A stretch of DNA of 32,000 bases from Thermosulfurimonas dismutans (GTDB lineage Bacteria; Desulfobacterota; Thermodesulfobacteria; Thermodesulfobacteriales; Thermodesulfobacteriaceae), in contig NZ_LWLG01000008.1 of NCBI RefSeq assembly GCF_001652585.1, forward strand, positions 30,001-62,000, written 5' to 3'. The notes beneath the pieces were generated by a model, which saw only the letters and a list, made by a program, of their open reading frames with translations, was not told the DNA's origin and did no database searches. The translations under genes were made by a program, and so were the position numbers. Positions 1 through 18,323 of this stretch are shown piece after piece (positions within the stretch are counted from its first letter, which is position 1; the number at the start of each line of letters is the position of its first letter).

Positions 1-301
1 TTTCTAACCAGACAGGTAAAATTTTGCTTTTGTTTTGCGTAAGTCTGGTAAAAGCAATATCTATTTCCCTTTGAACCCATTCTTGCTTGATTGAATATTT
101 AGATAATACAATTATAAAAAAATCAGCTTTTTGAGAGGCTTCATCTATTTTTCTAACAATTGAATCTCCAACTTTAATTTCCCAATCATCAACAAAAATT
201 TCTGCTATACTCTTTAAATCTTCTTTCATTTTTTTTGTAAGCTCCCAAACAAAATCATGATCTTTAGAAGTATGAGATACAAATATATAAATTTTAGACA
301 T
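1..301 (-). CDS. TIR-domain protein, N-terminal ~100 aa only (gene runs off the left edge)
   Basis: My own minus-strand translation from ATG 301..299 gives MSKIYIFVSHTSKDHDFVWELTKKMKEDLKSIAEIFVDDWEIKVGDSIVRKIDEASQKADFFIIVLSKYSIKQEWVQREIDIAF... This shows TIR hallmarks: an FVSHxxKD start, a G-D-S-I loop, the hydrophobic strand FFIIVLS, and S..W...E with the conserved Glu. GGAGG (315..311) lies 9 nt upstream of the ATG. The ORF is missing from the supplied track because it is truncated. Confidence 0.75.
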   Translation of the reverse strand, partial: MSKIYIFVSHTSKDHDFVWELTKKMKEDLKSIAEIFVDDWEIKVGDSIVRKIDEASQKADFFIIVLSKYSIKQEWVQREIDIAFTRLTQNKSKILPVWLE

Positions 302-333
302 TTCTTTTATCCTCCATGAGTCTTATTTTACAG

Positions 334-1185
334 CTAATTAAAAGCTTTATCATAAATTTCAGAAAGCAATTTAATTAAGCTTGTTTTATCTTCTACTATA
401 TATGGAATAGTTTTAAAATCTAATTCCAAAACATATCTAAAATACCTTATATTATTTTTAATATTTTCCTTGTTTTTTTCAGAAATCCCTGGTATCCAAA
501 AAACTTTTTTTCTTTTTGCATCTTCATTAAAAAATTGTGAATATATCTCCATTTCGGTTAAACTATACCCTATATATACAAAAATCATATAATTGTTGAA
601 AATTTTTTCCCAACATTCTCGAACTTTCCTAGGTGGATTATGATAAAATTTCGCGTAATCTTCTTCCGCAAATACCCATGATTCCGGTTTATCTATTCTT
701 CCATGAAGATAAATAATTTTGGAGTTAATAGAACAATTTTCAATGGGAATTATACTTATATGATCATCTGATAAATTGAGAGTATTTTGCAAACCTTTAT
801 CAATGTTAGTCGTGATTATTAAAATCTCTTGGTTTAAAAATTTTCCTATAATTTTAAATACTTCTTTATCTAACATATATTCAACTTCTTCAAAAACTTT
901 CTTCATTGTATCTATGTATAAGTATTTATGACATCCTTTAAAGCACTGCATTTTTTGAGGAAATTTAAGATAGGGATCATCTAATAATCTCAAGATATGT
1001 GGCTCCACAACTCCTCTCCATATAAAAATTTCTTTTAATTTCATTATAAGCTCTTCCCACAAAGGATAACCTGCAATTTTTGAAACGCCCGCTCCTAACC
1101 AAAAGCAACATAGTTCTTTATTGCTTTTCAAATTTTCAATTAAAGTCTCTAAATGTATTTCTTCTTCTATAGAATATATAAACAT
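334..1185 (-). CDS. Standalone SIR2-like (SIR2_2 family) NAD-utilising protein with no SLOG or other C-terminal sensor domain
   Basis: ORF 334..1200. Motifs are FWLGAGVSKIAGYPLWEELI (GAGxS dinucleotide loop), IITTNIDKGL (TTNYD-like), IYLHGRIDKPESWVFAEEDY (catalytic LHG) and VYIGYSLTE. The track start at 1200 is GTG; the ATG at 1185 (MFIYSIEEE) is the more likely start. About 283 aa is one SIR2 domain only. Confidence 0.7.
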   Translation of the reverse strand: MFIYSIEEEIHLETLIENLKSNKELCCFWLGAGVSKIAGYPLWEELIMKLKEIFIWRGVVEPHILRLLDDPYLKFPQKMQCFKGCHKYLYIDTMKKVFEEVEYMLDKEVFKIIGKFLNQEILIITTNIDKGLQNTLNLSDDHISIIPIENCSINSKIIYLHGRIDKPESWVFAEEDYAKFYHNPPRKVRECWEKIFNNYMIFVYIGYSLTEMEIYSQFFNEDAKRKKVFWIPGISEKNKENIKNNIRYFRYVLELDFKTIPYIVEDKTSLIKLLSEIYDKAFN

Positions 1186-1295
1186 CTTTTTTACACACAC
1201 TTATTGCCTTTTTTAATCTATTTTTTACTAGTTCAGCTACAGCCCAATAGACTTCTTTCTTCTTCGGTTAAACCGAGGGCGTCAAAAATAATGTG

Positions 1296-3137
1296 TCAAA
1301 TAACTTTATTACACATCCCTTTCACAATTTCAAACCAATTTTTTATTTCTTCCCATGCATTGAGTTCTTCTAAATGACTTTTAGTAATTTTCTGTGCTAC
1401 TTTTCCACAAAGAAGTTTCTTGGCATCTTTTTCTTTTATCCCCTTCTTGTTTGCAACTAACTTTGGAATATCAGCATTATCCCAATCTGAAATATTTCCA
1501 AGAATAATATTAAGCTCAGTTTCAATAAGCTTCTGGGGAATATAATTCTCTATCTCTCTTTTTTTTGTCAAAAGCCCATTTGAACCATCTTTTCGCTGTT
1601 TTACTTTTTCTATTTCATTTTTGTATTTTTCATCTTCATCTCTATCATAAAGATGAAATTCAATTGCATTAGTATTTCTAAAAATGTGACGGTCAATATG
1701 ATTTTTTAGTTGACTACCTCCCATTATATTGAAAGCTAATACCCCCGAATTAATGTAAACACTCAAATCGATTATTTCTTTTAGTTCTGGAATATTTTGA
1801 TTAATATTTATCAAAAATTTTTCGTCAGTTTCTCCCTCAACACACCAAATAACTTTTCCAATAGTTGGCATAATTCCTAAATTTTGTATAATTTTACTAA
1901 GAATATTTTCATCAAAAATTGCAACACTTACAGAGTTATTTTCCTTTTCTATATATTTAATGCTATCAGTTGGAAGTAACCTTATAAAAGAAGGGCTGTG
2001 AGTAGTAATTAACACTTGATAAATATCAGAATTTGCTAAACCTAATAAGCTGTCTAATAAAATTCTTTGTAAATCTGGATGTAAAGAAGTTTCAGGCTCT
2101 TCAATAGCATAAATAACATGAAAGGTACTTTCCTCTTTTCTTTTTTCTTTTTCAGAAATAAAGAAACTAAGAAGAACCAACCTTCTAAATCCACTCCCTC
2201 TTTTATTAAGAGGTACACCGTCATCTGTTTTAAACCCAATTCCCTTATAGACATCTTTCCATTTTAGGTCCACAGCTGAAGGAATATCTGGTTCAATTTT
2301 AGTTTCTTGTTTAGCTAATTTTTTAAATTGTTGTATAGTACTTTCAGCGATTGATTTTATCTGATTTTCAACTTTTTCGGCTATTTTAAGGAGTTGCTCT
2401 TTAATTTCCTCATCATCTTTAAATATTCTTTCAACTGCAATTTTAAGTGGATCCTGAATTTCAGCATCTTGATCAAGATTTTTGCGATCAGAGTGAAAAA
2501 GACCATATATAGGTAAATAATTTTTTAGTTTTTCCCAAATCGCCTTAGCATCTTCTGCGTCCACTTGAATTTCAATCTTTTCAAGTTTTAAATTTCCATC
2601 TTTTTGTTTATAAAATTTTCTTATTGATTCTCTTAAGATTGCATTAATATTTCTGTTGCTACATAATATAGAGTTGTCATTCACAAATTGTTGAAGCTCG
2701 CGCCGTTTCTTTCTTAAAAGGTCTTTAAGGAAATTATCATTAACTGGATGTATACAGGCAATAGTTGTTACTACCTTCAATCTGCCCGAAAATGTAAAGG
2801 TTTTCCATACTTCCAATAACTCATCCTCGTTAAGTAAAAATTCATTTTTAAGATTTGTAGGATATCTTTCATCAATTATCAACTCCTGTGGAAAATTTTT
2901 AAAAACAATACCTATTTTGAAACTATTTTTACCTTCTGCCCGCGCATGGACATTTATATCTTCATGATTCGTTTTAACCACTCCCTTTCCATCGTTAAGA
3001 AAAATATCAATAGCTTCAAGGATAGACGATTTCCCCTGATCATTTTTTCCTATAAAAGCTGTAAAATCATCCAAAGGAATTACAACTTTTCCCTTAAAAG
3101 CTCTAAAATCTTCAAGTATAACTTTCGCAATTTTCAT
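1296..3137 (-). CDS. OLD-family ATP-dependent endonuclease (ABC/AAA_15-21 ATPase plus C-terminal TOPRIM)
   Basis: 613 aa. Walker A is GKNDQGKSS, Walker B region is YAIEEPETSLHPDLQ, and ITTHSPSF follows. C-terminal TOPRIM signatures are VIWCVEGETDEKFL (Glu) and HLYDRDEDE (DxD). No UvrD-like partner is adjacent. The start overlaps the stop of the upstream 73-aa ORF by 4 nt. Confidence 0.8.
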   Translation of the reverse strand: MKIAKVILEDFRAFKGKVVIPLDDFTAFIGKNDQGKSSILEAIDIFLNDGKGVVKTNHEDINVHARAEGKNSFKIGIVFKNFPQELIIDERYPTNLKNEFLLNEDELLEVWKTFTFSGRLKVVTTIACIHPVNDNFLKDLLRKKRRELQQFVNDNSILCSNRNINAILRESIRKFYKQKDGNLKLEKIEIQVDAEDAKAIWEKLKNYLPIYGLFHSDRKNLDQDAEIQDPLKIAVERIFKDDEEIKEQLLKIAEKVENQIKSIAESTIQQFKKLAKQETKIEPDIPSAVDLKWKDVYKGIGFKTDDGVPLNKRGSGFRRLVLLSFFISEKEKRKEESTFHVIYAIEEPETSLHPDLQRILLDSLLGLANSDIYQVLITTHSPSFIRLLPTDSIKYIEKENNSVSVAIFDENILSKIIQNLGIMPTIGKVIWCVEGETDEKFLININQNIPELKEIIDLSVYINSGVLAFNIMGGSQLKNHIDRHIFRNTNAIEFHLYDRDEDEKYKNEIEKVKQRKDGSNGLLTKKREIENYIPQKLIETELNIILGNISDWDNADIPKLVANKKGIKEKDAKKLLCGKVAQKITKSHLEELNAWEEIKNWFEIVKGMCNKVI

Positions 3138-3355
3138 TCTCCTTCACCTCTTTCTAACAACTTACACTTTTGAATATTATCCTTTTTAAAACAGATGTGT
3201 TTTAAAAAAACATTTTTCTCTATTAGGCCAATTTCTTTTGGGGTTAAATTATAAAGTTTGCAAACTAAACGGTCTATTTGTTTCTCAAGGGCGGTGGTGT
3301 CGGCGGAGCAGCTGTTGGTTTGGTTTAAATAAAGAATTTTAAATTCTGCAAACAT
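3134..3355 (-). pseudogene. 73-aa ORF carrying only the C-terminal tail motif of type IIG/PglX-like methyltransferases; probable relic of a deleted or replaced gene
   Basis: The sequence ...ADTTALEKQIDRLVCKLYNLTPKEIGLIEKN... matches the terminal adt..LE..ID.LVY.LYgLT.eEI.iiE tail found at the extreme C-terminus of Eco57I/MmeI/PglX-type enzymes. No methyltransferase body precedes it. The ATG is 1 nt after the Res-like stop and the stop overlaps the OLD ATG, so it may still be translated. Confidence 0.4.
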
Positions 3356-3356
3356 T

Positions 3357-6300
3357 TTATATTATTTTTTCAAACATTTTCTCAATGTATGTCTCCTTGT
3401 CATCCTTTTGAAAAAGGACATGGCGATTTTCGAGTTCTTCTTTAGTAAGGCCCCACCATTTGATATCGCTGTAAAGAGTATAAGAAACGATAAAAGAATG
3501 GAGCTTCAACTGAGGATCACCTAATTTGCGTTCTATTTCCTTGATGCTCTGATAAAATCTCAACTTGGGATCATTAGGGCCTTCACGTTTTCGGATTCCC
3601 TTGGGATCAATAAAGGCTACATGTTGAATATCTGGTAGAAGTAGCCAAAGAATAAAATCGGGGTAAAAATTTCCGGCCTCAAAAAACCCTATTCCTCTGC
3701 GGCTACGATTGCGTAAAAGATAAAGCTCCTTATTTTGGAAAAAGTCTCTATTTTTCTTGTAGAAATTCCGCAAGTCGAATAGAAAATCCCTTTCACTTTC
3801 GGAATCTAAAATCACAGGCCTTACTTCAATAAAATCTCCTCGAATATAAAGTAAAGGTTGATATAAATGGCGCCCAAAATTGATAGCTAAAATGTTTTCA
3901 AATTCGAAATCCCGTTTAAACGTTCCAGACTGGACTAGGTTCTTTAGCTCCTCCAACTTTTTCACAATATCTTCTCGTGAAGCTTCGATATAAATACGAT
4001 ACTTTTCAAAAAAGTTCGGATCGTCTGGTCTTAGTTCGGAAACTTCGAGATATTCATTCTCCCATTCACGCTTGCAATATGAATAATGTCTATCTAAATA
4101 CTTTTTGAGAAGGGTTACCGCAATTTCCTGCCAACGACGAACTTGTTCAAAACTTTTAAATTCCATTTCTTCCCGGGGGATGTAAAGCTCGTACCACGAT
4201 TTATCGGTCAGGAGCTTTGGGATTTCGTCTCTCTCAAGCCTTACATTGTGCCAGGAACGTTCGGCTTTATATTCTTGAAGCTCAAAGTAAATTTGGTCGA
4301 TATCGAGAAAAGCAACGTGTTTTTCTTCGAAGAAACAAAGGTCTTTCTCTGCCCTTTGTTTGGAACCTATTCCAGCGCCACTTTCCAAAGCCTGAAGGCG
4401 GGGATACCAGTCTACAACTACTTTGTAACGTCTTAAGTATTCGGTTACTTCTCCAAAGTAAGGTTTCGGGCCATTGCGCTTAAAATCGATCCCTTCTTTT
4501 AAACGAACAATCTTTAATGGTCGGCTGCTGTTAAAATTTTTGACTACAGGAAGAATGAATTCAATGCGATCTTCATTGGTCGGGAGACCTTCTTCCTCAA
4601 GATATTCTTTAAATTGCCGCATGTAATCGGCTCTAACTCCGAAAACATTTAGCGTTTCCAAAATCTCAATATATTTAGGCGGTTCAATTCCTTCCAAACG
4701 GCGGCTTCGTTTGAGGCAGTAATCTTTACCTTTCAAGCGCACTCCGCGGCCGAATAGCTGAATAATTTGAGCTCCTTCTTTTTTTCCAATATTCATCAAG
4801 CCCATGGTGCTTACACGCCAGCTGTTCCAGCCCTCGGTAAACTTACGGGAGCCGATGAGAATGTTCACTGTGGAATCTTCCTCGTTGAGATTATGAAAGA
4901 GACTTCCAGAAATTACCTTTTCAGTAATAACCAGATTAGGATGGTTTTCACAAAGTTTCAGTAAATTCCCTGGATCACCTACATTGATAACACCAAAGGG
5001 TTCGTTATCTCCCACTTTAATGGCGATTTCGCCCTCAGCGTCTTTCAAATGTTCTAGATGCAGAGCGCCTGGAGCCTTGGTATTGAAAACGATTTCCAAA
5101 ATGTCGTGATAGACCTCTTCGGCTGAAAGTTTAAGAGTATTCAAATAGCGGAAAACCCCAGCAAAGAGTTCGTGGCCTTTCTTGTCCAAAAGTCCGGAAC
5201 GTCCCTGGAGAAGCTGTTCAATAATCTCTATACTTTCGGAACGATTTTTTATGAAATTTGCCAAAAAGAGCAAAATATCAAGAACGTCTGAAACTTTTCG
5301 GCCATGTTGTGTGCGTACAGCATTTACGCTGCCACCTACAAAAACCCATAAGGGCTTGGCTAAAAGGTAAGGCCGAAATTCTTCTTTTTTATCCAGGTAA
5401 AGTCTTAGTTGTTGATAGAAGGTAAGAAGCCCGGCGGTAAGATATTTTTTGCGTATGACTTCGTCGGAATCGTCTTCCAAATTGAGGATGCGATAATCCT
5501 TACCGTAACCATCTTGATAAAAATAGCGATAGGAATAGTCAAAGATGATACACTTGGCGTAAAGAGCTTCCAGTTCTTTATCGCCTTTGACGGCTTGGCC
5601 AAAAGTGGCGGAATATTCAAAGGAAAAGCCCTTCTCACAGAGTTTATCGCGCCGCGAAAGCCATGAACTTTCTTTTCCGCCGGAGGCTCCGCGGTGCCCT
5701 TCATCTACGAGGACAAGATTATTCCCTTCAAAGGTCTCTGGGGGGATGGTTTTTTCGCCGGCTTCTTCGCGAAGTTTGTGAATATCTATAATCAGGACTG
5801 TCTCCCGAGCAAAGAGCCCTCCACTTTCCTTACGGAAGATCTCCGCCGGAATGCCGGAAAGATTAAATTCTTCCAGGTGTTGAAGGGAAAGCCCTTCATT
5901 CGGCGTAAGCAAGATAATGCGGTTCAATTCTTCTGGCTTTCCATATAACCTAAGGTAGTGCAGATATTGCAGGAGGTTCACGTGCATTAAAAGTGTTTTT
6001 CCGCTTCCCGTGGCCATCCAGAAGACCAGTTTGTTGAGATCTCCCTTTTCGAAAGGTTTAAGTTCTTCCTCGGGATAATTTTCCTTGAAACGCTCAAGAT
6101 AAGCATTCAGAGAATTGAGTAGCCCCTCGAGGTTTCGAAAATAGCGGTCCAGATAAATCTCCGTGAAAAGCAAAGCCAGATATTGGAAATATTTGGGATA
6201 AAGGACATGGCCTAAACGATTACGATTTTCGGTTATTTTTCTCCAATGGCGCACAATGTTTTCATCGTAACGAAGAAGATCCTCTGGTGTTAAAGGACCA

Positions 6301-6506
6301 GTACCCTCAATTTGCTTCACCAGCTCATGATAGAATTTAGTGACATTGTTTTCGTCAAAGCCTTCGAGTTCTGGCCGCTTCAGGGCTTGAGCCAGACTAT
6401 CAAAAGAATCTTTGCCAAAAAGAGATAAAACCCAGCGATTTAATACCAGCCGCTTTTCGAAAGGCAATTTAGGTTTTGATTGATGTTTAGTTCTTTTCTT
6501 CGGCAT
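3357..6506 (-). CDS. Type III restriction Res-like SF2 helicase with C-terminal PD-(D/E)xK nuclease
   Basis: 1049 aa. Helicase motifs are WMATGSGKTLLMH (I), LVLVDEGHRG (II, DEGH), YSATFGQ (III) and QLFGRGVRL (VI). The C-terminus has GNFYPDFILWLL...VAFIDPKGIR, which matches the Y-x-PDF ... (D/E)-x-K-G pattern of Res-type endonuclease domains. Confidence 0.8.
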   Translation of the reverse strand: MPKKRTKHQSKPKLPFEKRLVLNRWVLSLFGKDSFDSLAQALKRPELEGFDENNVTKFYHELVKQIEGTGPLTPEDLLRYDENIVRHWRKITENRNRLGHVLYPKYFQYLALLFTEIYLDRYFRNLEGLLNSLNAYLERFKENYPEEELKPFEKGDLNKLVFWMATGSGKTLLMHVNLLQYLHYLRLYGKPEELNRIILLTPNEGLSLQHLEEFNLSGIPAEIFRKESGGLFARETVLIIDIHKLREEAGEKTIPPETFEGNNLVLVDEGHRGASGGKESSWLSRRDKLCEKGFSFEYSATFGQAVKGDKELEALYAKCIIFDYSYRYFYQDGYGKDYRILNLEDDSDEVIRKKYLTAGLLTFYQQLRLYLDKKEEFRPYLLAKPLWVFVGGSVNAVRTQHGRKVSDVLDILLFLANFIKNRSESIEIIEQLLQGRSGLLDKKGHELFAGVFRYLNTLKLSAEEVYHDILEIVFNTKAPGALHLEHLKDAEGEIAIKVGDNEPFGVINVGDPGNLLKLCENHPNLVITEKVISGSLFHNLNEEDSTVNILIGSRKFTEGWNSWRVSTMGLMNIGKKEGAQIIQLFGRGVRLKGKDYCLKRSRRLEGIEPPKYIEILETLNVFGVRADYMRQFKEYLEEEGLPTNEDRIEFILPVVKNFNSSRPLKIVRLKEGIDFKRNGPKPYFGEVTEYLRRYKVVVDWYPRLQALESGAGIGSKQRAEKDLCFFEEKHVAFLDIDQIYFELQEYKAERSWHNVRLERDEIPKLLTDKSWYELYIPREEMEFKSFEQVRRWQEIAVTLLKKYLDRHYSYCKREWENEYLEVSELRPDDPNFFEKYRIYIEASREDIVKKLEELKNLVQSGTFKRDFEFENILAINFGRHLYQPLLYIRGDFIEVRPVILDSESERDFLFDLRNFYKKNRDFFQNKELYLLRNRSRRGIGFFEAGNFYPDFILWLLLPDIQHVAFIDPKGIRKREGPNDPKLRFYQSIKEIERKLGDPQLKLHSFIVSYTLYSDIKWWGLTKEELENRHVLFQKDDKETYIEKMFEKII

Positions 6507-6512
6507 TCTGGC

Positions 6513-6983
6513 TTATTTTATAGCGCTCAAAAGATTCTCGGCCCGGATTTTTCTGTACTTCCTATTTCGAGGTTGCCGACCGTGTGACCCACCTGCAATT
6601 ATTACAAAAGTCCTCGAAGGATTTATTTGAAGCCCTAGATTTTCAAAAAGATAGCGGGCTCCTCTTTCTTTATTTTCAAGCTCGGCTTCTTCATGTTTCC
6701 CAAGTTCAAGCAGAAAGAATTTGACCCGGATCAACCCAGATTGTAGCTTGGCATATATCAATAATATGTCCGGCAAAGCTACAGATGAATCCAATTCAGC
6801 AAAGTGCTTCAGACATGGCATATGATGCCTTTTTATATCAATATTTACCATCAGGATAAGCTCGTCCGGTTCGATGGTGGGGAAAGAAACGGTTACTCCT
6901 TTTTCTTTAATAGAATTACCTCTTATCAGGCACTGAAAGAGGCGAAAAAGCCCTATTTCACTGCTCTCTCTTAAGAATTTCAT
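6513..6983 (-). CDS. Hypothetical 156-aa protein, partner of the upstream ATPase; no family recognised
   Basis: The ORF start overlaps the ATPase stop by 26 nt. GGGGGA lies 8 nt upstream of the ATG. The only motif-like stretch is LPDILLIY...FFLLELGKH, a weak and unproven PD...E..K-like pattern. Coding status rests on ORF length and operon context. Confidence 0.5.
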   Translation of the reverse strand: MKFLRESSEIGLFRLFQCLIRGNSIKEKGVTVSFPTIEPDELILMVNIDIKRHHMPCLKHFAELDSSVALPDILLIYAKLQSGLIRVKFFLLELGKHEEAELENKERGARYLFENLGLQINPSRTFVIIAGGSHGRQPRNRKYRKIRAENLLSAIK

Positions 6984-8436
6984 CCTGAAGTTCCCCCAGA
7001 AGACCTAGTTTTTCCCAAAGGGCTTCAGAGACTTGCGAAAATGTGCTCCAGTCAATATCAACCTCCGGGACTTCTTTAGGAATCTTCCGGATGTCTTCTA
7101 CCTGGCCGTCCGTCCGGAAAAAATAGGCCGAAAATCTGGAAGGGTCCAACAAGGCCTCCTCAGGCACCTCAAAAGGAGGGGCTTTAAGAATATTTTTTAA
7201 GCGTTCTTCTAGAGAAGAAAGACCGTTTTCTTTTATTTTTTCGCGGATTCGATAAGACCAAGCCAGAAAATTGAAGGTGTCAAGGATGTAAGGGCTGTGG
7301 GTGGTCAATAGGACTCGTAGGCCCAGGTTGACCGCCATGGCTAGGGCTATGGCCAGAATCACCTGAGCTTCAGGATGCAGATGCATTTCCGGCTCATCTA
7401 TCACCAGAAAGGCCCCTTCGGGAGCGCTTCTCAAAAACTTCTCCAGGGGAAGCAGGGCCTTAACCCCCGAACTGGCTCCGGAAATTTTTATCTCTCCTTC
7501 TCCAAAATTGAACCAAAATTCATCTTTTTTGAAATTAATTCTTCCTTTAAGTAATTTTTGCTCTAGAAGAGCTATCACTTTATCATAAACTTGAGAGACT
7601 TTTTTCCTCTCACTAAGCAAAAGAAACGTTAAAAAATCTTCAAAGACTTCCGGAAATTCGATATATTGTAAAAGAGAAAAAAGTTTTTTGCGCCATTTTT
7701 TGATAGATATATTTTCTCTCCATAATTGTGTGAGCTGATTTTTCAAGACAAACCATTGACGATAAAAAAGAAAAGACGTGCGTTCGGAAGGAATTATTAA
7801 ATTATGTCTAGGAAATCCTAAAAAATAAGCAAATTCTTCGCAAAATGTCTCTTCAAAAAAATAGTACTCAGTATCTGTATCATATTCTTCCAGATATTCT
7901 CCAAAAACATGTTCGTCTTGACTGTCATAAGGTATATAGACTTCAAAAATATTACCATCTTTTTTCAAGAAAGCAGAATAAAATAATCTACCAACTTCTG
8001 CTCCTTCCAGAGTATTTTCATCTATCTCTCCTACTATTCCAGAAATAGGAATATCACCCTCAAATTCCAATTTTTGTACCTTTTCTTCTTTTGTAATCAA
8101 GGATATTTCAAGTTTAGGTATTTTATTCTCTATACCGAAATATTTTCGCCAAAAATTGGGTAGCATCGATTCTGCAATTTCTTTTTTCCAAGCTTCTATC
8201 CATTGTTCTTTGAGTTCTTCAAAATTGAATTTGAGACGCTCATGTAAAAAAAGCTCGGAAATCTTTTCTTCGCCCAGGCCGCACTGGTCAGGATAGGTGT
8301 TCAGTAAGGCGTGTATCAGATAAGCGGTATATGTTTTTCCGGTATTGTTCGGTCCAATAAAGACCGTAAGAGGTCGCCAAACGATCCGAGAATCTTTTAC
8401 TGGCCCTAACCGTTTAATGTCAAGAATTAACTCCAT
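6958..8436 (-). CDS. ABC-type AAA_21/AAA_15 family ATPase (same superfamily as OLD N-domain, RloA, AriA and PtuA-type defense ATPases)
   Basis: 492 aa. Walker A is GPNNTGKTY, Walker B plus signature is FLVIDEPEMHLHPEAQ, and LLTTHSPYILD follows. AGGAG RBS is upstream. A long variable middle region lies between the two ATPase half-sites. Confidence 0.8.
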   Translation of the reverse strand: MELILDIKRLGPVKDSRIVWRPLTVFIGPNNTGKTYTAYLIHALLNTYPDQCGLGEEKISELFLHERLKFNFEELKEQWIEAWKKEIAESMLPNFWRKYFGIENKIPKLEISLITKEEKVQKLEFEGDIPISGIVGEIDENTLEGAEVGRLFYSAFLKKDGNIFEVYIPYDSQDEHVFGEYLEEYDTDTEYYFFEETFCEEFAYFLGFPRHNLIIPSERTSFLFYRQWFVLKNQLTQLWRENISIKKWRKKLFSLLQYIEFPEVFEDFLTFLLLSERKKVSQVYDKVIALLEQKLLKGRINFKKDEFWFNFGEGEIKISGASSGVKALLPLEKFLRSAPEGAFLVIDEPEMHLHPEAQVILAIALAMAVNLGLRVLLTTHSPYILDTFNFLAWSYRIREKIKENGLSSLEERLKNILKAPPFEVPEEALLDPSRFSAYFFRTDGQVEDIRKIPKEVPEVDIDWSTFSQVSEALWEKLGLLGELQDEILKREQ

Positions 8437-8457
8437 TATTTTTTCTCCTATTGAGTT

Positions 8458-11400
8458 TTATACATCTCTTACTTCAAACATTCTTTTCAAAAATTCTTCT
8501 TCAATAAGCCTGACTTTCCAGGTATGGTCTTCGCGGCGGAGATTTTCTAAGAAATTATCGCCGTTCACATAGATGATGTCGAACTCCTGGTCTCTGGTGT
8601 TGTACCCCTGCTTTCTAAACCATTCATTAAGCTTCTCAGCGTCCATCTCTTTAGTATTGCGCCAGAGGATAAGGACTTTCTCTCCTTGTGGATTTTCGCC
8701 GGTGATCACGCGCACGCCACGGATATGATCTACAGTCTTTACTCTCAGACCTATAAGATAGTTGAAGGTCTCCACCATATCCACTTTGACCCGGCGGGTA
8801 TCGCCCACAGTAGTGGTGGCAATTTCCATTTCGTAATTGAAAGGATCTTCAAAGCGTTCGACATTCAAAAGGCTTTCCCGAGTTTCAAACTCCAGCATGT
8901 AGCGCAGGATGTAATCCTCACGAAACTCCCGATTTTCATAAAGGAGTTTTTGTTGAATTTCGGTGCGTTTGAGTTCCAGATTGTTAAGGGTATCTTCGTA
9001 AGATTCTAGACGAATGTATTTGAGGAAGTGGCTTATGCCGTTTAGATTGCCGTCCTTATCCGGCTTGGGCTTGCCGTCCTTCCAATCACGGGAATAAATA
9101 ATCTTCTTTATACGGGGAAGGAGCACGGTGTCGAAATAATCCGCCACCTCCACCAGGATATATTTCCTTTTCCCGCCATCTTCGCGATTGAGATTGATCA
9201 CCGCATGTGCCGTGGTGCCGGAGCCGGCGAAGTAGTCGAGGATGAGGTCTGAATGGTTTGATACTGCATAAATTGCATCAGATACTGTATAAATAGACTT
9301 AGGATACAAATTTTCGTCAAATTTTAATCCTAATTCGGTTAATATACGAGTTCCATAATCTCCGGCTATATACTTCGGATCATCCCAAACAGTTTTAAAT
9401 TGTTTTTCTGTATTAGCTTTTAAAATCTGAATTTCGCCCTCACGAGTAATATGGACTTTAAGTAAATGCTTGATTTTTTCTATAGAATCTCTTGAATATC
9501 TCCATTTTCTTTCTATTCCTTGTTGATCTACTGGATAAATAGCTACTATTTGGTCATTTATGTAAATATTAGCTTTTCCTGGATGAAAATTCTCATCACA
9601 TACATCACCAAAACCTACAATGTTTTTATTTTTAATGTTTACATAAATAGGATAAAAACAATTTCTTGCTGTTTCTCTTTCGGATTCTCTGCCCCATTTT
9701 CTGAGATTCACGTATTCCCATTCTTCTTTTGGAATAGGCTTTCCATGTATTTTTGGTAATTTATGTGGAATACAAAAATAAGCAAAATCATGATTATAAG
9801 AAAAATATTTTCCCTGAATTCCTTTTTTATTGTGAATAATGGAAACGCAAATTTTTTCAAAATGATCTTCTGGAAAATGTAGTGATAGCAAACGGCCAAG
9901 TAATTCCTGTTCATTTTCATCAATAGCTATTATATGGCTTCCATCTTCTGTAGCAAAAATTCGACTTAAGGCGAGTCGATTATCTATCAATGTAAGCCAA
10001 GAGGAATGTTTATAATCATTCTTGTAAAGAATTTCCGTTGTTTTTGAATTATACGGCGGATCAATGTAAATACACTTAACCTGCCCCCTATACCGCTCGA
10101 GCAAAAGATTTAACGCCTGGAAGTTTTCGCCGTGGACGAGAAGACCGTCAAGCTCCTCGTCCAGGTTATCAAAAGAGGAAATAAGCTTGAGCTTGAACTC
10201 TTCGTCAAAATGGCGGGTGTCTATCACCAGATGGGGATGGGCTTTCAAAAATTCTATGGTCGGCGGTTCTGACCAGCCCGGCCGAACTAGATCGCCCTTT
10301 ATCTCATGGACATGGTAAAGTTTTTTCCACTCTTCGATTTGGTCCTGATTTTCAAGGATACGTTCAATGAGCCAGTTTCGTTTTTCCTCGTCCTCAATGG
10401 CAAAAATACGGTCAAGGGTTATGCAATATTGCGTCTCCCAGATAAATTTCTTTTTGAGCCAGAGTTTTTTCTGAAAGTTTTCAAGCTGGGCGAGAAAATC
10501 GATGATCTTGTGCCCGATGCGGCGGATAGCTTTAACTTTAGCGAGATATTGTTCTACCCGTGGCGCAGACTCGTTTTCTATATCGTCCAGGTGAACGACC
10601 TCATTCTTGATGTAAAAATCGAGCTCCCGGCGTAAGAATCCGCCCAGGTCTTTGTGGATGAAATAGTCAAAGGTGTTTCGGGCAGTAAAAGCGGCCAGAT
10701 GTTTCTCTAGAAGGGTTCGGTCTTTATTCTTTGGAGTAGGACGCGGCTCCTTGAGTTCTTTTTTCCAATCCTCAAAGCCATCGGTTTCCAAAAGAATAAA
10801 CTCGGCAATAGCCTTATTGATTTCTTCTTGTTTGCGGTCGTCCGGCCGGTATTCAAAACGAATAACCAGTTCGCCGGCTTCCTCCGCGATGGGATCGGCT
10901 TCGTGGAGCACAAAGCGACGTTTTTTAGAATTGGTAGTTTTTATATTGTCCCGGTCAGCCTCGGCTTGGACAACCTCGAAACGGACCCTTTTACCGGAAC
11001 GAAGTCTAAAAGCGTAATTGCGGAAATATTCGCTAGTTTTGATGTAATATTGATCGTAATTGGCCCAGTAAAGTTTTACTTCTTCACCGTTGTAAGGAAT
11101 GGCGTAAACATTTTCCTTATAGCGGCGTTTTGAAATGAAATCTCCCTCATCGTAGTAGCGACTGAAGAAGGTGTAGAGATGGGAATAGACTTCCTCTTCA
11201 AGCGCCGCTTGATCCGTCGTTCTTTGTAACTGGGCACGAAGCTCTTTGACTTTTGGAGATTGCTCAGGATCAACGCCAGCGTCTTTAAGCTGGTTTTCCA
11301 ATTTGATAAGCTCTTTTTCCAGAGCCTGCCGGCGCTCCTCGTCCATCTGGCCCAAAATTTCTTTCACTTGGGGGAGAAGATCTTCATTAAGAAAGCGAGA

Positions 11401-11514
11401 AATTTCTTCTCTCTTGGCATTCATGATGCGGTAGATGCCGAAATCAAGATCAGCGTGGTCAAATTGAAAAAGCTCGGCCAGAAGTTTTTTTAGTTTTTCA
11501 AACTGCTGGGACAT
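8458..11514 (-). CDS. Large beta-class N6-adenine/N4-cytosine DNA methyltransferase (type III Mod-like) with long N- and C-terminal extensions
   Basis: 1018 aa. Motif IV IYIDPPYN (around 10060) precedes motif I ILDYFAGSGTTAHAV (around 9240), which is beta-class order. WLTLIDNRLALSR and IIAIDENE resemble Mod-type methyltransferases. The N-terminus DLDFGIYRIMN is typical of large Mod-like enzymes as far as I recall. GGGGGAGG RBS is upstream. Confidence 0.85.
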   Translation of the reverse strand: MSQQFEKLKKLLAELFQFDHADLDFGIYRIMNAKREEISRFLNEDLLPQVKEILGQMDEERRQALEKELIKLENQLKDAGVDPEQSPKVKELRAQLQRTTDQAALEEEVYSHLYTFFSRYYDEGDFISKRRYKENVYAIPYNGEEVKLYWANYDQYYIKTSEYFRNYAFRLRSGKRVRFEVVQAEADRDNIKTTNSKKRRFVLHEADPIAEEAGELVIRFEYRPDDRKQEEINKAIAEFILLETDGFEDWKKELKEPRPTPKNKDRTLLEKHLAAFTARNTFDYFIHKDLGGFLRRELDFYIKNEVVHLDDIENESAPRVEQYLAKVKAIRRIGHKIIDFLAQLENFQKKLWLKKKFIWETQYCITLDRIFAIEDEEKRNWLIERILENQDQIEEWKKLYHVHEIKGDLVRPGWSEPPTIEFLKAHPHLVIDTRHFDEEFKLKLISSFDNLDEELDGLLVHGENFQALNLLLERYRGQVKCIYIDPPYNSKTTEILYKNDYKHSSWLTLIDNRLALSRIFATEDGSHIIAIDENEQELLGRLLSLHFPEDHFEKICVSIIHNKKGIQGKYFSYNHDFAYFCIPHKLPKIHGKPIPKEEWEYVNLRKWGRESERETARNCFYPIYVNIKNKNIVGFGDVCDENFHPGKANIYINDQIVAIYPVDQQGIERKWRYSRDSIEKIKHLLKVHITREGEIQILKANTEKQFKTVWDDPKYIAGDYGTRILTELGLKFDENLYPKSIYTVSDAIYAVSNHSDLILDYFAGSGTTAHAVINLNREDGGKRKYILVEVADYFDTVLLPRIKKIIYSRDWKDGKPKPDKDGNLNGISHFLKYIRLESYEDTLNNLELKRTEIQQKLLYENREFREDYILRYMLEFETRESLLNVERFEDPFNYEMEIATTTVGDTRRVKVDMVETFNYLIGLRVKTVDHIRGVRVITGENPQGEKVLILWRNTKEMDAEKLNEWFRKQGYNTRDQEFDIIYVNGDNFLENLRREDHTWKVRLIEEEFLKRMFEVRDV

Positions 11515-11535
11515 TTAGATCCTCCCCCTTAATTT

Positions 11536-14394
11536 TTATATAACCGACCATCTAATAGTAAAAAGAGGTTCTCGATAAGTCTTCTGTCTAAGTCTTCGCT
11601 CAAGTTGTTCGATAAGTTCATCCCGTTTGGCCAAAATTTCATCCTCGATATCAAAAATTTTTTGTCGTAAGCGGCGCTTTTTCCGTTCAAGCTCTTGAAG
11701 TTTACGCTGAATTTTGTGTTGTTCTTCAAGAGTGGCGGCCAAACGAGCCTGGCGCCTTAGGGCTTTTATCTGTTCTTTGGTTTGGTTAAGTTCCTGCTCA
11801 GCAGCCAAAATCATATCATCTGCCCATTTTTCAAGTTGTTCTCTTGCTTCCTGAAAGTAGCGGTTGTTTTCTTCAAGAGAGCGTGCAATGGTGGCCTGAA
11901 CATGACGTTCGGTCTCTGCCTCTAGGCGTTTGGCTACTTCTTGCGGAATTTGGACAGGTCCTTCCACTTCTCCACCGCAAAGGAAAAGTTTTTCGCATAT
12001 TTCCTGGTCGAGAGATTGACCCTCGTCAGTAACACCGGAAAAAAGTAAGTATTCCTCTTTTTGAAAAGATTCTATTACCAGCCTTTGTAAATGTATCCAA
12101 CCGGATTGACCTTTAAGGTTTTCAATCACAGTAATACGCGCAGGGTGGTTTGTTATATCAAAAATTACATGCATGGGAGGGGTAGGAAGCTTTTGGCCTT
12201 CGTTCAGAACATACTCTCCTAAGGGATGAGAAAAACGATAAAGAAACCGTGCTCCTATCTTTTTAGAACTTTGAGAGGTTTTCAAATAATAACGGCCGAG
12301 GGGAATTCCTTCTATCGGAGAACGATAGAGCTCAAAACTCAAAGATTTATCATCAAATTTGGCGCAATCTTTAAGAATATTCTTGGTAAGACCCCAAAAC
12401 ATACGACTTAGACGATCAAGATATTGCTCTGTTTCGCTTAAGCGGAGTTTTAGGCGTTCGTGAACTTCTTCGTCAAAATGTTCCAAAAGTTTGCGGCGGG
12501 TTTCAGCTAAAGTGCTCTTGATCTTTTCATCAAGCTCTTTTTGGAGCTTACGAAAGGCTTCATCGATTTCTTCTGGGGTACGGCAAGTTTGGTATATTTC
12601 CAAAACCCTTTTTTCGAAATCTACGCCTGATTCTATAGCTCCAAGGACTTCATCCGAAGCACCAAAAAGTCCAGTGAAAAGACGAAATTTTTCGGTCAAA
12701 AGCTCGTAAACTCTTTGATCTGCAGCGTTGCGCTGGTTTAAAAAATTGATTACCACTACATCAAACTTTTGGCCATAACGATGGCAACGACCGATACGCT
12801 GTTCGATACGCTGGGGATTCCAAGGAAGATCGTAGTTAATCACCAGAGAACAGAACTGGAGATTTATTCCTTCCGCCCCGGCTTCCGTGGCAATCAAAAT
12901 TTCGGCATAGTCTCGGAAATGTTCAATTAGAGCCGTTCTGATGTCCACTTGCTTATTACCGGTTATACGGCCGGTGCCGGCGTTAACTTCAAGCCATTTT
13001 TCATAAATGCGATGGCTTTCAGGGTCTGTATTAGTGCCACTAAAAGTGACTATGCGCCCAGCATAGCCGTTGGCTTCTAGGAAATCTTTGAGAAACTGTT
13101 GAGTACGGCGAGACTCTGTAAAAATAACGGCTTTTCGAGCCGCCCCCATTTCCTCCATTTTTTTAAAGCCAATTTCTAAAGCCTTAAGAAGAGCTCGGGC
13201 CTTACTATCTATGCCTATGCTTTTCGCCCAGCGAATGAGGGAGTCAAGCTCAGAAATTTCGGCTTCAAGTTTTTGTAAATCGATTTCTTCTGTGGAGAGT
13301 TCTTCCTCCGGCTCAGTGTCTTCTTCAATAAGTTCGCTTTCGAGCTCTTCCTCATTGAGGATGCGTTCGAGCAGGTCGCTATCATCTTTTTCTTTGAGCC
13401 CATCTCGAAGTTCGATAAGTCTGTCACGTAAAGCCTCTAGCATGGCGGCTACTGCTCTCGGAGAAGAAGCCAAAAGTTTTCTGGCAATTAGAATCATGAG
13501 ATGACGATGTCGCTTTGGAAAGGCGTAAGTATCTTCACGCTGTAGATAGGATGATATAGCTTCATAAAGGCCTTGCTCGTCATCCGAAGGAGTAAAGGGT
13601 TGGGTAATAAGACGCCTTTCAGTGTAGCGAATATATTCGGTTACCTGACGCCTAAGAGTTCGATAACAAAACTTTTGAAGCCTTTCTCGTAGCTCTAACA
13701 AATTACCGTTTCGTCCCATATATTGGGCACGGAAAGCTTTTAGATCTCCAAAAATGCGTTCGTCTATCAAAAGAGAAAGTCCATAGAGTTCGAGTAGAGA
13801 GTTTTGAAGCGGAGTGGCCGTCAAAAGAATTTTAGGACGGTCTTCTAAAGCAAATTTTATATTTTGTCCGATCCGATTCGAAGGCCGATAAAGATTTCGC
13901 AGTTTATGGGCTTCGTCTATAACTACTAGATCCCAATTAACTGCGCGAATGTAATGGGCCATCCGGCTGGCATAGTGCATAGAAGTAATAACAATTCGGT
14001 CACAATCGAAAGGATTGGGATTTCCTTGTGCCATAGATTCTTTGAAAGATTTAGCATCAAGAATAATTGTAGGCAGGAAAAATTTTTCCTCTAATTCAAG
14101 AGACCATTGTTTGCGAATAGAAGCTGGACAAATAATCAAAAGTTTACGCTTGCGTTCTGCCCAAAACTGGCATAGTACTAACCCGGCCTCGATAGTTTTT
14201 CCAAGACCTACTTCATCAGCCAAAATAACTCCTTTGGAAATAGGAGAACGCAAAGCAAAAAGAGCGGCTTCAATTTGGTGAGGATTAAGATCAACCGCGG
14301 CATCAAAAAGAGAGTGCGATAGACGGGTTAATTCTTGGCTACTACGTTGTTTAATAGCGTAAGCGTAATATTTAGCGTGATAGTCGGTAATCAT
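11536..14394 (-). CDS. SNF2/SWI2-family helicase with C-terminal extension ending in a coiled coil
   Basis: 952 aa. Motifs are LADEVGLGKTIEAG (I), LVVIDEAHKLRN (II), LLLTATPLQNSLLELYGL (III) and GAEGINLQ...DLPWNPQRIEQRIGRCHRYGQK (V-VI). It is the first gene of the co-directional array. Confidence 0.85.
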   Translation of the reverse strand: MITDYHAKYYAYAIKQRSSQELTRLSHSLFDAAVDLNPHQIEAALFALRSPISKGVILADEVGLGKTIEAGLVLCQFWAERKRKLLIICPASIRKQWSLELEEKFFLPTIILDAKSFKESMAQGNPNPFDCDRIVITSMHYASRMAHYIRAVNWDLVVIDEAHKLRNLYRPSNRIGQNIKFALEDRPKILLTATPLQNSLLELYGLSLLIDERIFGDLKAFRAQYMGRNGNLLELRERLQKFCYRTLRRQVTEYIRYTERRLITQPFTPSDDEQGLYEAISSYLQREDTYAFPKRHRHLMILIARKLLASSPRAVAAMLEALRDRLIELRDGLKEKDDSDLLERILNEEELESELIEEDTEPEEELSTEEIDLQKLEAEISELDSLIRWAKSIGIDSKARALLKALEIGFKKMEEMGAARKAVIFTESRRTQQFLKDFLEANGYAGRIVTFSGTNTDPESHRIYEKWLEVNAGTGRITGNKQVDIRTALIEHFRDYAEILIATEAGAEGINLQFCSLVINYDLPWNPQRIEQRIGRCHRYGQKFDVVVINFLNQRNAADQRVYELLTEKFRLFTGLFGASDEVLGAIESGVDFEKRVLEIYQTCRTPEEIDEAFRKLQKELDEKIKSTLAETRRKLLEHFDEEVHERLKLRLSETEQYLDRLSRMFWGLTKNILKDCAKFDDKSLSFELYRSPIEGIPLGRYYLKTSQSSKKIGARFLYRFSHPLGEYVLNEGQKLPTPPMHVIFDITNHPARITVIENLKGQSGWIHLQRLVIESFQKEEYLLFSGVTDEGQSLDQEICEKLFLCGGEVEGPVQIPQEVAKRLEAETERHVQATIARSLEENNRYFQEAREQLEKWADDMILAAEQELNQTKEQIKALRRQARLAATLEEQHKIQRKLQELERKKRRLRQKIFDIEDEILAKRDELIEQLERRLRQKTYREPLFTIRWSVI

Positions 14395-14541
14395 TCAGTA
14401 CTTCTTTATCTTCTGACTTTATCTTCTGGCTCACGACGCCGATGATCTCGCGCTCCTCGGTCATCTCGATTTCGGGATATTCGTAGTTTTTCCTAAGCCA
14501 CCCTACAAGTATTTCTTTCCCCCTTTAAAAGGTTTTTCTAC

Positions 14542-14870: not shown

Positions 14871-14876
14871 CTTTTT

Positions 14877-17165: not shown

Positions 17166-17178
17166 AGCTGTTTCCCCC

Positions 17179-18252: not shown

Positions 18253-18299
18253 CGGTAAACTCCTTTTCTTTTGGTTTGGTCTTTATTTTATAACACCTC

Positions 18300-18322: not shown

Positions 18323-18323
18323 C

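What the first reader, a model, noticed from the sequence alone, without database searches (positions are those of the whole stretch)
1..1200. Standalone SIR2 followed by a TIR protein: Thoeris-like pair lacking the SLOG sensor domain
In canonical type I Thoeris, a TIR protein (ThsB) makes a cyclic-ADPR-derived signal that is sensed by the SLOG domain of ThsA and activates its SIR2 NADase. Here a TIR gene sits 32 nt downstream of a SIR2_2-family gene. That SIR2 protein is only about 283 aa, a single SIR2 domain with no SLOG, Macro or TM domain. Either signal sensing happens differently (in the SIR2 core, by direct TIR-SIR2 contact, or in the unseen C-terminal part of the TIR protein), or two NAD-consuming enzymes act together in a new arrangement. 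GC is about 28-30%, far below the flanking chromosome.
Basis: partly seen in the sequence, partly recalled or inferred. Interest (0 to 1): 0.75.

Follow-up and report, generated by a model that had tools for sequence, protein, structure and literature searches.

The report
SIR2 plus TIR-tipped DSR1-type sensor
The small SIR2 gene and the TIR gene next to it are a real, conserved anti-phage gene pair, but it is a variant of the known DSR1 sirtuin defence (split SIR2 plus a roughly 1,100-residue phage-protein sensor that carries a TIR domain at its tip), not a Thoeris signalling system.

Summary
On the minus strand a 283/288-aa single-domain SIR2 gene (1200..334) is followed after 32 nt by a TIR gene (301..1, cut by the window edge). 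GC is 27%, against 47% for the rest of the window.

The Thoeris reading does not hold. In the closest homologue (84% nt identity) and in about 20 other loci, the TIR gene encodes a 1,094-1,229-aa protein. It consists of a TIR domain, a two-helix linker and an all-alpha solenoid that matches the PADLOC Dsr1 model over positions 265-1225 (E = 1e-114).

The nearest relatives of the SIR2 among 1.8 billion representative proteins are DSR1 SIR2 domains, both fused and split. Sensors that are 78-94% identical occur without TIR and are then paired with a different, clearly DSR1-type standalone SIR2. So this is a DSR1 derivative with SIR2 on its own polypeptide and TIR fused where SIR2 sits in DSR1.

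The catalytic residues of both enzymes are invariant: SIR2 Asn/His and TIR Glu. The upstream AAA_15/OLD-like gene is not part of the system.

Most likely mechanism (inferred): the solenoid binds a phage protein, then TIR and a bound SIR2 both destroy NAD+. Signalling from TIR to SIR2 is not excluded.

Verdict: new variant of a known kind, moderate interest.

The parts
1..301 (-). First 100 codons of the TIR-sensor gene, cut by the window edge. The TIR domain has its catalytic Glu79 at codon 67..65. The full protein is inferred to be about 1,100 aa: TIR, two-helix linker and DSR1-type alpha-solenoid sensor.
   Evidence: Pfam TIR_2 4.7e-19. Window 1..1299 is 84% nt identical to L001, where the gene encodes the 1,103-aa protein P0024. 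Residues 125-1103 of P0024 match PADLOC Dsr1 at 1e-114. The Glu of the W-x-x-x-E motif is invariant in 16 of 16 sequences that reach it and aligns with the same motif in BtpA/TcpB TIR 4c7m.
302..333 (-). 32-nt intergenic spacer with a GGAGGA ribosome-binding site (complement of ccTCC at about 310-316) ahead of the TIR ATG.
   Evidence: Read directly. The same 32-nt gap occurs in L001/L002. In many other loci the two genes overlap by 4 nt.
334..1200 (-). Standalone single-domain SIR2 gene: 288 aa from GTG 1200, 283 aa from ATG 1185. In 288-aa numbering the catalytic Asn132 is at codon 807..805 and His166 at codon 705..703. The NAD-binding GAGxS motif is at residues 36-40.
   Evidence: Pfam SIR2_2 1.3e-12. 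Invariant G36, G38, S40, T131, N132, D134, H166 and G167 in 19 homologues. AF2 gives a single domain, pLDDT 89.9. Foldseek matches KomC, ThsA and DSR2 SIR2 at TM 0.60-0.67.
1201..1299 (-). Upstream non-coding leader of the cassette (presumed promoter region). Homology to the L001 locus ends here, exactly at the stop of the unrelated AAA_15 gene.
   Evidence: The blastn block of window 1..1299 against L001 2391-3722 is 84% identical. The promoter scan found nothing above chance.

Best explanation
This is a two-gene anti-phage NADase system of the DSR1 (defence-associated sirtuin 1) family.

Gene 2 encodes the receptor, a protein of about 1,100 aa. Its C-terminal roughly 930 residues are the DSR1-type alpha-solenoid sensor. 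Its N-terminus carries a catalytically competent TIR domain at the position where classical DSR1 carries SIR2. Gene 1 encodes the SIR2 NADase as a separate polypeptide. It is translated together with the receptor and probably bound to it, perhaps at the TIR domain or the conserved two-helix linker.

The proposed sequence of events is as follows. The solenoid binds a phage structural protein; for E. coli Dsr1 this is reported to be the major capsid protein. The receptor then changes conformation or oligomerises. The TIR and SIR2 active sites switch on and NAD+ is destroyed, which blocks phage replication.

Shown here: the architecture, the homology, the conserved pairing and the intact catalytic residues. 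Inferred: the SIR2-receptor complex, the trigger, NAD+ depletion and the division of labour between the two enzymes.
For: 1. The large partner is a DSR1 sensor. Residues 125-1103 of P0024 match PADLOC Dsr1 positions 265-1225 of 1227 at E = 1e-114. Bona fide fused Dsr1 proteins (P0108, P0095, P0066) fall in the same family. The AF2 model (pLDDT 90.2) shows TIR 1-125, linker helices 126-164 and then an all-alpha solenoid. No NTPase, SLOG or Macro domain was found.

2. The pairing is obligate in the sample. About 20 of 20 informative loci from distant lineages have the short SIR2 immediately upstream of TIR-sensor, either overlapping by 4 nt or within 35 nt.

3. Split DSR1 exists. Sensor-only proteins P0027, P0045, P0061 and P0076 each have an overlapping upstream SIR2 gene. 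The L026 SIR2 hits Dsr1 model positions 2-301 at 2e-78. Sensors with and without TIR are 94.5%, 86% and 78% identical, so this sensor family can drive a SIR2 supplied in trans without any TIR.

4. SIR2 placement. The family profile scores 126-133 bits on fused DSR1 SIR2 domains, against 60 for DSR2, 58 for KomC and 50 for ThsA. In an exhaustive search the next-best hits after the clade itself are Dsr1-length (about 1,200 aa) and split (about 300 aa) proteins. The clade is sister to them in an NJ tree.

5. Both active sites are invariant.

6. Function of the family from the literature. DSR1 depletes NAD+ on infection (10.1101/2021.12.14.472415). The Dsr1/Avs7 sensor is a bilobed TPR solenoid triggered by phage major capsid protein and occurs with diverse N-terminal effectors (PMC12803255). 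A standalone SIR2 controlled by a partner subunit has a precedent in KomBC (PMC13454610; structural match).
Against: - No complex was modelled or measured.
- The SIR2s that pair with TIR-sensors form their own clade. They are only about 28% identical to the split-DSR1 SIR2s even where the sensors are 94% identical. They do not hit PADLOC's Dsr1 HMM; the best hits are LmuA and ThsA. They may therefore dock or be controlled differently, through TIR.
- A second TIR type fused to the same sensor was seen without any SIR2, but in one locus only. TIR-sensor alone may therefore suffice, which leaves the role of SIR2 open.
- The trigger is extrapolated from E. coli Dsr1, whose sensor is only distantly related.
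- The T. dismutans sensor gene itself could not be recovered, so its integrity is unknown.
Confidence: 0.55

Rival explanations
1. Thoeris-like relay inside a DSR1 chassis. The solenoid senses the phage and the TIR domain converts NAD+ into a cyclic-ADPR-type or ADPR-conjugate signal. That molecule activates the SLOG-less SIR2, by binding the SIR2 core or by driving its filamentation. SIR2 then depletes NAD+ and amplifies the response.
For: The TIR-associated SIR2s are a separate monophyletic clade found only with TIR-sensors. The TIR Glu is invariant. The TIR is most similar to cADPR-isomer-producing bacterial TIRs: BtpA/TcpB, PdTIR and AbTIR. The [SIR2 + TIR] head replaces a plain SIR2 on near-identical sensors, which suggests that the two depend on each other. 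Many effector types respond to TIR signals (10.64898/2025.12.03.692087).
Against: The SIR2 has no ligand-sensing domain in either sequence or model. No effector consisting of a SIR2 domain alone turned up in the parts of the Thoeris survey I read and searched; its figures and supplementary tables were not available. Frequent 4-nt gene overlaps fit a stoichiometric complex. The same sensor family drives a SIR2 in trans without TIR.
Confidence: 0.2
2. TIR acts as adaptor and SIR2 is the only real effector. The TIR domain and linker serve mainly as a docking and oligomerisation platform that recruits this particular SIR2 clade. TIR NADase activity would be dispensable.
For: TIR domains are assembly scaffolds in many immune systems (established knowledge). 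The linker helices after the TIR are conserved across divergent members. The SIR2 gene can be exchanged while TIR-sensor stays 95-96% identical: the L012 and L013 SIR2s are 44% identical.
Against: The catalytic Glu is invariant in all 16 sequences that reach the motif, which is unexpected for a purely structural domain. A related TIR-sensor exists with no SIR2 at all.
Confidence: 0.12
3. SIR2 acts as regulator or product processor. It would restrain the TIR receptor before infection like an antitoxin, ADP-ribosylate a target, or convert the TIR product, rather than deplete NAD+ in bulk.
For: Some SIR2_2-family proteins have transferase rather than hydrolase chemistry (established knowledge). 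The SIR2 evolves and swaps faster than TIR-sensor.
Against: All experimentally studied defence SIR2s that resemble it most closely in structure and sequence (DSR1, DSR2, ThsA, KomC) are NADases. Nothing here points specifically to another chemistry.
Confidence: 0.08
4. Three-gene system that includes the upstream 613-aa AAA_15/OLD-like ATPase, or simply two unrelated defence genes lying side by side.
For: The AAA_15 gene ends 96 nt upstream on the same strand and shares the low GC.
Against: The AAA_15 protein has no homologue in any of the 25 related loci. Nucleotide homology to L001 stops exactly at its stop codon. The SIR2 + TIR-sensor pairing is conserved in about 20 loci, so the two genes are not independent.
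Confidence: 0.03

Closest known systems
DSR1 (defence-associated sirtuin 1; PADLOC/DefenseFinder Dsr1)
   Same: The C-terminal alpha-solenoid sensor is homologous (E = 1e-114 over the whole sensor). The SIR2 belongs to the sister clade of DSR1 SIR2 domains. The setting is a defence island, and the presumed output is NAD+ depletion.
   Different: DSR1 is one polypeptide, SIR2-sensor. Here SIR2 is a separate protein and a TIR domain occupies the N-terminus of the sensor. The SIR2 clade no longer matches PADLOC's Dsr1 HMM.
Split DSR1 (standalone SIR2 plus sensor-only protein; seen in L026, L029, L030, L032)
   Same: Same two-gene order, overlapping genes, and sensors up to 94.5% identical.
   Different: It has no TIR. 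Its SIR2 is the classical DSR1 type (Dsr1 HMM positions 2-301, 2e-78) and is only about 28% identical to the TIR-associated SIR2.
Type I Thoeris (ThsA SIR2-SLOG plus ThsB TIR)
   Same: It is a TIR gene next to a SIR2 gene, both NAD+-handling, and the SIR2 fold resembles the ThsA SIR2 domain (TM about 0.62-0.67).
   Different: There is no SLOG domain. The TIR protein is an 1,100-aa receptor rather than a small ThsB. The gene order is fixed, with translational coupling. The SIR2 is closer to DSR1 than to ThsA.
Kongming KomBC effector complex
   Same: A standalone SIR2 of about 270 aa with no sensor domain of its own, controlled by a partner subunit. It is the top structural match.
   Different: The partner KomB is a small dITP-binding pyrophosphatase-like protein. 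There is no TIR and no solenoid, and no KomA or KomB homologue is present here.
Avs7 and other carriers of the Dsr1/Avs7 sensor (PMC12803255)
   Same: A modular solenoid sensor with interchangeable N-terminal effectors, reported to be triggered by phage capsid protein.
   Different: Avs7 has a STAND NTPase. None is present here.

Membership tests
Type I Thoeris | The effector ThsA carries a SLOG (STALD) signal-binding domain fused to SIR2. | tested here: not met
   Pfam finds only SIR2_2. PADLOC ThsA hits are weak (E = 3.5e-7) and cover only the SIR2 part. The AF2 model is a single SIR2 domain of 288 aa. The Foldseek alignment covers only the SIR2 half of ThsA, with TMt about 0.4.
Type I Thoeris | ThsB is a small protein that senses the phage and produces a signal, essentially a TIR domain. 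| tested here: not met
   A TIR domain is present. In all complete homologues, however, the protein is 1,094-1,229 aa with a DSR1 sensor.
Type I Thoeris | A TIR-produced gcADPR signal activates the SIR2. | not testable with these tools
   This needs lysate-transfer NADase assays and LC-MS.
DSR1 | C-terminal sensor homologous to Dsr1. | tested here: met
   Residues 125-1103 of P0024 (the L001 homologue; window 1..1299 is 84% nt identical to that locus) match PDLC04166 positions 265-1225 at E = 1e-114. This part of the window's own gene lies outside the window.
DSR1 | SIR2 domain fused N-terminally to the sensor in one polypeptide. | tested here: not met
   SIR2 is a separate ORF. The N-terminus of the sensor protein is a TIR domain.
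DSR1 | SIR2 of the DSR1 lineage with catalytic Asn and His. | tested here: inconclusive
   The catalytic residues are invariant. The nearest relatives are DSR1 SIR2 domains. But the clade is distinct, and PADLOC's Dsr1 HMM does not hit it at E <= 1e-5.
DSR1 | NAD+ depletion on infection, with a phage capsid protein as trigger. | not testable with these tools
   Known only for experimentally studied DSR1 proteins.
Kongming (KomABC) | KomB pyrophosphatase-like partner and KomA deaminase next to the SIR2 KomC. | tested here: not met
   The neighbours are TIR-sensor and AAA_15. No such domains were found.
TIR-STAND / Avs (TIR-NLR) | A central STAND NTPase (P-loop) domain between effector and sensor. 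| tested here: not met
   No NTPase domain in Pfam or PADLOC for P0024. The AF2 model is an all-alpha solenoid directly after the linker.

The most novel reading that the evidence does not exclude
The TIR domain and this dedicated SLOG-less SIR2 clade form an obligate functional unit. Two versions are possible. In one, the TIR product directly switches on a bare SIR2 domain, which would be a new mode of TIR-signal perception. In the other, TIR and SIR2 co-assemble into a hetero-oligomeric NADase whose mixed products (ADPR plus cADPR isomers) resist phage NAD+-reconstitution and signal-sponge counter-defences. On either version this [SIR2 + TIR] head has repeatedly replaced the plain SIR2 head on DSR1 sensors.
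Probability: 0.25. Interest if true: 0.75.

Novelty: new variant of a known kind. Interest (0 to 1): 0.5.

Why it matters
SIR2 and TIR are the two main NAD+-cleaving immune domains, and both are shared by bacteria, plants and animals. The one well-studied case where both act in a single system is type I Thoeris, where a SLOG domain links them.

Here a conserved but rare pair puts both on one phage-protein receptor without any known signal-binding domain. It comprises about 40 clusters at 50% identity among 15 billion proteins, mostly from thermophiles and uncultured anaerobes.

Near-isogenic natural controls exist. Sensors that are 78-94% identical carry only a SIR2. This makes a clean experiment possible on what the added TIR contributes: redundancy, resistance to counter-defence, or signalling.

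It also shows that PADLOC's Dsr1 model matches these sensor proteins strongly even though they contain no SIR2 domain. Automated annotation would therefore probably label them Dsr1, and it has no model for the partner SIR2.

Tried and rejected
Searches that gave nothing:
- Exact-sequence look-ups of the window SIR2 (288 aa, 283 aa, P0001) found no contig.
- The genome scan did not return the T. dismutans contig.
- A homologue search with the 100-aa TIR fragment returned nothing.
- As a result the rest of the window's own TIR gene was not recovered, and whether the window edge is also a contig edge is unknown.
- The viral-contig scan with the sensor alignment gave no relatives.
- The promoter/terminator scan of 1..3600 found nothing above shuffled expectation.
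- The supplementary tables of the Avs7/Dsr1 preprint, which might list this architecture, are not held.

Ideas considered and rejected:
- AAA_15/OLD-like gene as a third component: absent from all related loci, and homology stops at its stop codon.
- Thoeris membership: no SLOG, and the TIR protein is not ThsB-like.
- TIR-NLR/Avs membership: no NTPase.

Corrections and limits:
- The mirror-tree test was meant to show whether SIR2 co-evolves more with TIR than with the sensor. It was not discriminating: r = 0.63 against 0.58.
- P0023 was first included in the SIR2 alignment and turned out to be a split-DSR1-type SIR2. The profile comparison was repeated without it.
- Foldseek of the receptor model against the PDB gave only generic HEAT/ARM solenoids at TM about 0.2, so no solved homologue of the sensor was found.
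Full report
**1. What is in the window**

All the genes discussed are on the minus strand.
- An ORF at 1200..334 encodes 288 aa from a GTG start, or 283 aa from the ATG at 1185.
- It is followed by a 32-nt spacer that carries a GGAGGA ribosome-binding site.
- A second ORF starts at 301 and runs off the left edge of the window. 100 codons are visible.

The first protein matches only Pfam SIR2_2 (E = 1.3e-12) and nothing in NCBIfam. The second matches TIR_2 (4.7e-19), TIR and ThsB_TIR. The SIR2 protein is identical to OAQ20638.1 / WP_068670425.1 of Thermosulfurimonas dismutans, a member of the Thermodesulfobacteriota.

GC is 26.8% over 1-1200, against 46.6% for 3357-32000 and 52.5% for the right-hand third of the window.

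**2. The unseen part of the TIR gene changes the picture**

The closest homologue of the SIR2 is P0002, at 77% identity. It lies on contig L001, which is 84% identical in nucleotide sequence to window 1..1299. There the same 32-nt gap leads into a 1,103-aa protein, P0024.
- Residues 1-125 are the TIR domain.
- Residues 125-1103 match the PADLOC Dsr1 model over positions 265-1225 of 1227, at E = 1e-114.
- The AlphaFold2 model (pLDDT 90.2) shows the TIR domain, two linker helices (126-164) and then an uninterrupted alpha-solenoid.
- Foldseek finds only generic HEAT/ARM solenoids in the PDB.
- No P-loop, SLOG or Macro domain appears in any search.

According to a January 2026 preprint, the Dsr1 sensor is a bilobed TPR solenoid shared with Avs7. 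It is triggered by phage major capsid protein and occurs with many different N-terminal effectors (PMC12803255).

**3. The pair is a conserved unit**

I built an alignment of the short SIR2 family (A1) and used it to fetch 23 loci from genomes and metagenomes.
- In every locus where DNA downstream of the SIR2 can be read, the next gene begins with this TIR. Where the gene is complete it encodes a 1,094-1,229-aa TIR-Dsr1-sensor protein.
- The two genes overlap by a few bases or lie within 35 nt.
- This amounts to 18 non-redundant loci plus the window.
- Starting from the other side, two further TIR-sensor proteins (P0037 and P0068) each have a 293-298-aa SIR2 directly upstream.

Exceptions and unknowns:
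- L003/L014 ends 115 nt after the SIR2 with no TIR start in that stretch.
- L009 carries only SIR2 fragments.

The 613-aa AAA_15/OLD-like gene upstream in the window has no counterpart in any related locus. Homology to L001 ends exactly at its stop codon. It is a neighbour, not a component.

**4. Where the SIR2 belongs**

The AF2 model is a single SIR2 domain (pLDDT 89.9). Its best PDB matches are KomC of the KomBC complex, the SIR2 half of ThsA and the SIR2 domain of DSR2, at TM 0.60-0.67.

| Target of the family profile | Score (bits) |
|---|---|
| N-terminal SIR2 domains of fused Dsr1 proteins in the sensor family | 126-133 |
| Standalone SIR2s of split DSR1 loci (three of four) | 103-114 |
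| The fourth split-DSR1 SIR2 (L032) | 63 |
| DSR2 | 60 |
| KomC | 58 |
| ThsA | 50 |

The exhaustive search of 1.84 billion representative proteins adds the following.
- About 40 representatives form the family itself, and nearly all are 281-312 aa.
- After them comes a continuum in which proteins of about 1,200 aa (fused Dsr1) and about 300-335 aa (split) are interleaved.
- In an NJ tree the TIR-associated SIR2s are one branch and the DSR1 SIR2s are the other.

One caveat applies. PADLOC's Dsr1 HMM does not hit the TIR-associated SIR2s. Their best hits are the LmuA and ThsA SIR2 regions. It does hit the split-DSR1 SIR2 of L026 at 2e-78. The clade is therefore related to DSR1 SIR2 but distinct from it.

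**5. A modular sensor with swappable heads**

The sensor family contains five architectures:
- SIR2 fused to the sensor, which is classical Dsr1;
- the sensor alone;
- TIR type 1 fused to the sensor, which is the present case;
- a second TIR type fused to the sensor;
- an uncharacterised N-terminal domain of about 160 aa fused to the sensor.

All four sensor-only proteins examined have an overlapping upstream SIR2 gene, that is, split DSR1. The one type-2 TIR-sensor and the one unknown-domain sensor examined have no SIR2.

In the sensor tree these architectures are interleaved at the tips.
- P0025 (TIR-sensor) and P0027 (sensor only) are 94.5% identical over 925 residues.
- Their partner SIR2s are only 28% identical.
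- Two other such pairs of sensors are 86% and 78% identical.

The head of the system has therefore been exchanged recently and repeatedly, and the breakpoint lies at the start of the solenoid. Even the SIR2 alone can be swapped. L012 and L013 have 95-96% identical TIR-sensors but SIR2s that are 44% identical.

**6. Catalytic competence**

In the SIR2 family the NAD-binding GAGxS motif, the TTNxD Asn and Asp, and the LHG His are invariant. These are G36/G38/S40, N132/D134 and H166 in 288-aa numbering.

In the TIR, the Glu of the W-x-x-x-E motif is present in all 16 sequences that reach that position. It is E79 in the window, at codon 67..65. It aligns with the same motif of BtpA/TcpB. That this Glu is the catalytic residue of TIR NADases is established knowledge, not something tested here.

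**7. Mechanism**

The best-supported reading is a DSR1-type receptor-effector system with two NADase modules.
- The solenoid recognises a phage protein. The capsid protein is an extrapolation from E. coli Dsr1.
- The TIR domain is fused to the receptor in cis.
- The SIR2 is supplied in trans, co-translated, and probably bound to the receptor.

Arguments for a bound SIR2:
- The same sensor family must couple physically to a standalone SIR2 in split DSR1.
- 4-nt gene overlaps are frequent.
- KomBC provides a precedent for a sensor-less SIR2 controlled by a partner subunit.

Arguments that keep a TIR-to-SIR2 relay alive:
- This SIR2 clade is found exclusively with TIR.
- It has diverged from the DSR1-type SIR2.
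- Its TIR resembles TIRs that produce cADPR isomers.

I rate the complex, dual-effector model at about 0.55 and the signalling relay at about 0.2. The TIR-as-adaptor model gets about 0.12, SIR2-as-regulator about 0.08 and an unrelated or three-gene arrangement about 0.03.

**8. Comparison with known systems and novelty**

The system is not Thoeris. It has no SLOG, its TIR protein is not ThsB-like, and its SIR2 is not of the ThsA lineage. It is also not classical DSR1, because SIR2 is not fused and TIR sits in its place. It is best described as a new variant within the DSR1 family.

The general modularity of the Dsr1/Avs7 sensor, and the existence of split forms, are already noted in the 2026 preprint. 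I found no description of the specific SIR2 + TIR-sensor pair in the following:
- that preprint's text;
- the Thoeris survey of December 2025 (types I-XI; no effector consisting of a SIR2 domain alone in the text I read and searched);
- the DSR literature searched.

Figures and supplementary tables were not available, so prior mention cannot be excluded.

**9. Limits**

- The window's own sensor gene is not visible and could not be retrieved.
- All statements about its C-terminal part rest on homologues: 84% nucleotide identity across the shared 1.3 kb, and 88 of 100 identical residues in the TIR by my own count.
- No interaction, activity or trigger was measured.
- The trees are NJ trees without support values.
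- The absence of SIR2 next to the second TIR type rests on one locus.

Noticed in passing
window 1296..3137 (-): A 613-aa AAA_15 ATPase. PADLOC gives AriA 1.6e-63 over residues 1-385, and the protein also hits Old and GajA models out to residue 605. There is a weak DUF4276/Toprim-like C-terminus. It looks like a single-gene OLD/PARIS-like defence protein. It shares the 29% GC but is absent from all related loci.
   Followed up: partly
window 3134..3355 (-); L001 3-2138; L034 1-3101; L035 125-1129; L027 1515-5270; L028 1-2492; L030 1843-3426: The 73-aa ORF is a remnant of the C-terminus of a type IIG restriction-modification enzyme (PADLOC REase_MTase_IIG 2.7e-7; 70% identical over 27 aa to the end of the L028 enzyme). 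In at least five related loci a complete MmeI/Eco57I-type enzyme lies directly upstream of the DSR1-family gene or genes, and L030 has an N6_Mtase/Eco57I methylase there. This recurrent linkage is unexplained.
   Followed up: partly
window 3357..21172 (-): A long one-strand defence island. It contains:
- a type III restriction res subunit (1,049 aa, PADLOC 3e-239);
- a 156-aa ORF;
- an AAA_15/AAA_21 protein (492 aa);
- an N6_N4 methylase (1,018 aa);
- an SNF2 helicase (952 aa);
- an AAA_15 protein (762 aa) with a Metallophos protein (357 aa);
- a DUF2779 protein (498 aa);
- an AAA+ protein (417 aa).

A Metallophos + AAA_23 pair also sits just upstream of the split DSR1 in L026.
   Followed up: partly
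P0029, P0034, P0041, P0047, P0051, P0069, P0070, P0100, P0101, P0109 (N-terminal ~160 aa); locus L028 6001-9342: Some DSR1-type sensors carry an N-terminal domain of about 160 aa with no Pfam match. It has a CxxC...C/H zinc-ribbon-like insert and a conserved 'LLAHIAREIE-GIRD ... FH-FAHRHG-W' signature. In the one locus examined no SIR2 or TIR gene is nearby, so this may be an undescribed effector domain.
   Followed up: partly
L012 7938-12216 vs L013 4146-8343: The TIR-sensor proteins are 95-96% identical, but the upstream SIR2s are only 44% identical. The SIR2 gene can therefore be replaced on its own within the TIR-associated clade.
   Followed up: partly
L027 6001-9471 (P0082) and P0049, P0059, P0077, P0085, P0088, P0094: A second TIR type (N-terminus MIKTFISHSS, with F-x-x-x-E in place of W-x-x-x-E) is fused to the same sensor through a different linker. 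The only locus examined has no SIR2 gene, which suggests that TIR-sensor alone can be a complete system.
   Followed up: no
L009 7959-8605; L003/L014 8877-8991: In L009 the SIR2 is broken into 71-aa and 144-aa fragments, followed by an opposite-strand 336-aa gene and no TIR-sensor, so this looks like a decayed copy. L003/L014 ends 115 nt after an intact SIR2 with no TIR start codon in that stretch.
   Followed up: partly
all related loci: The SIR2 + TIR-sensor cassette has 27-35% GC in every locus. In 13 of the 14 loci measured this is below the local flanks (29-46% GC), whatever the host lineage, which fits a horizontally moving AT-rich module.
   Followed up: yes
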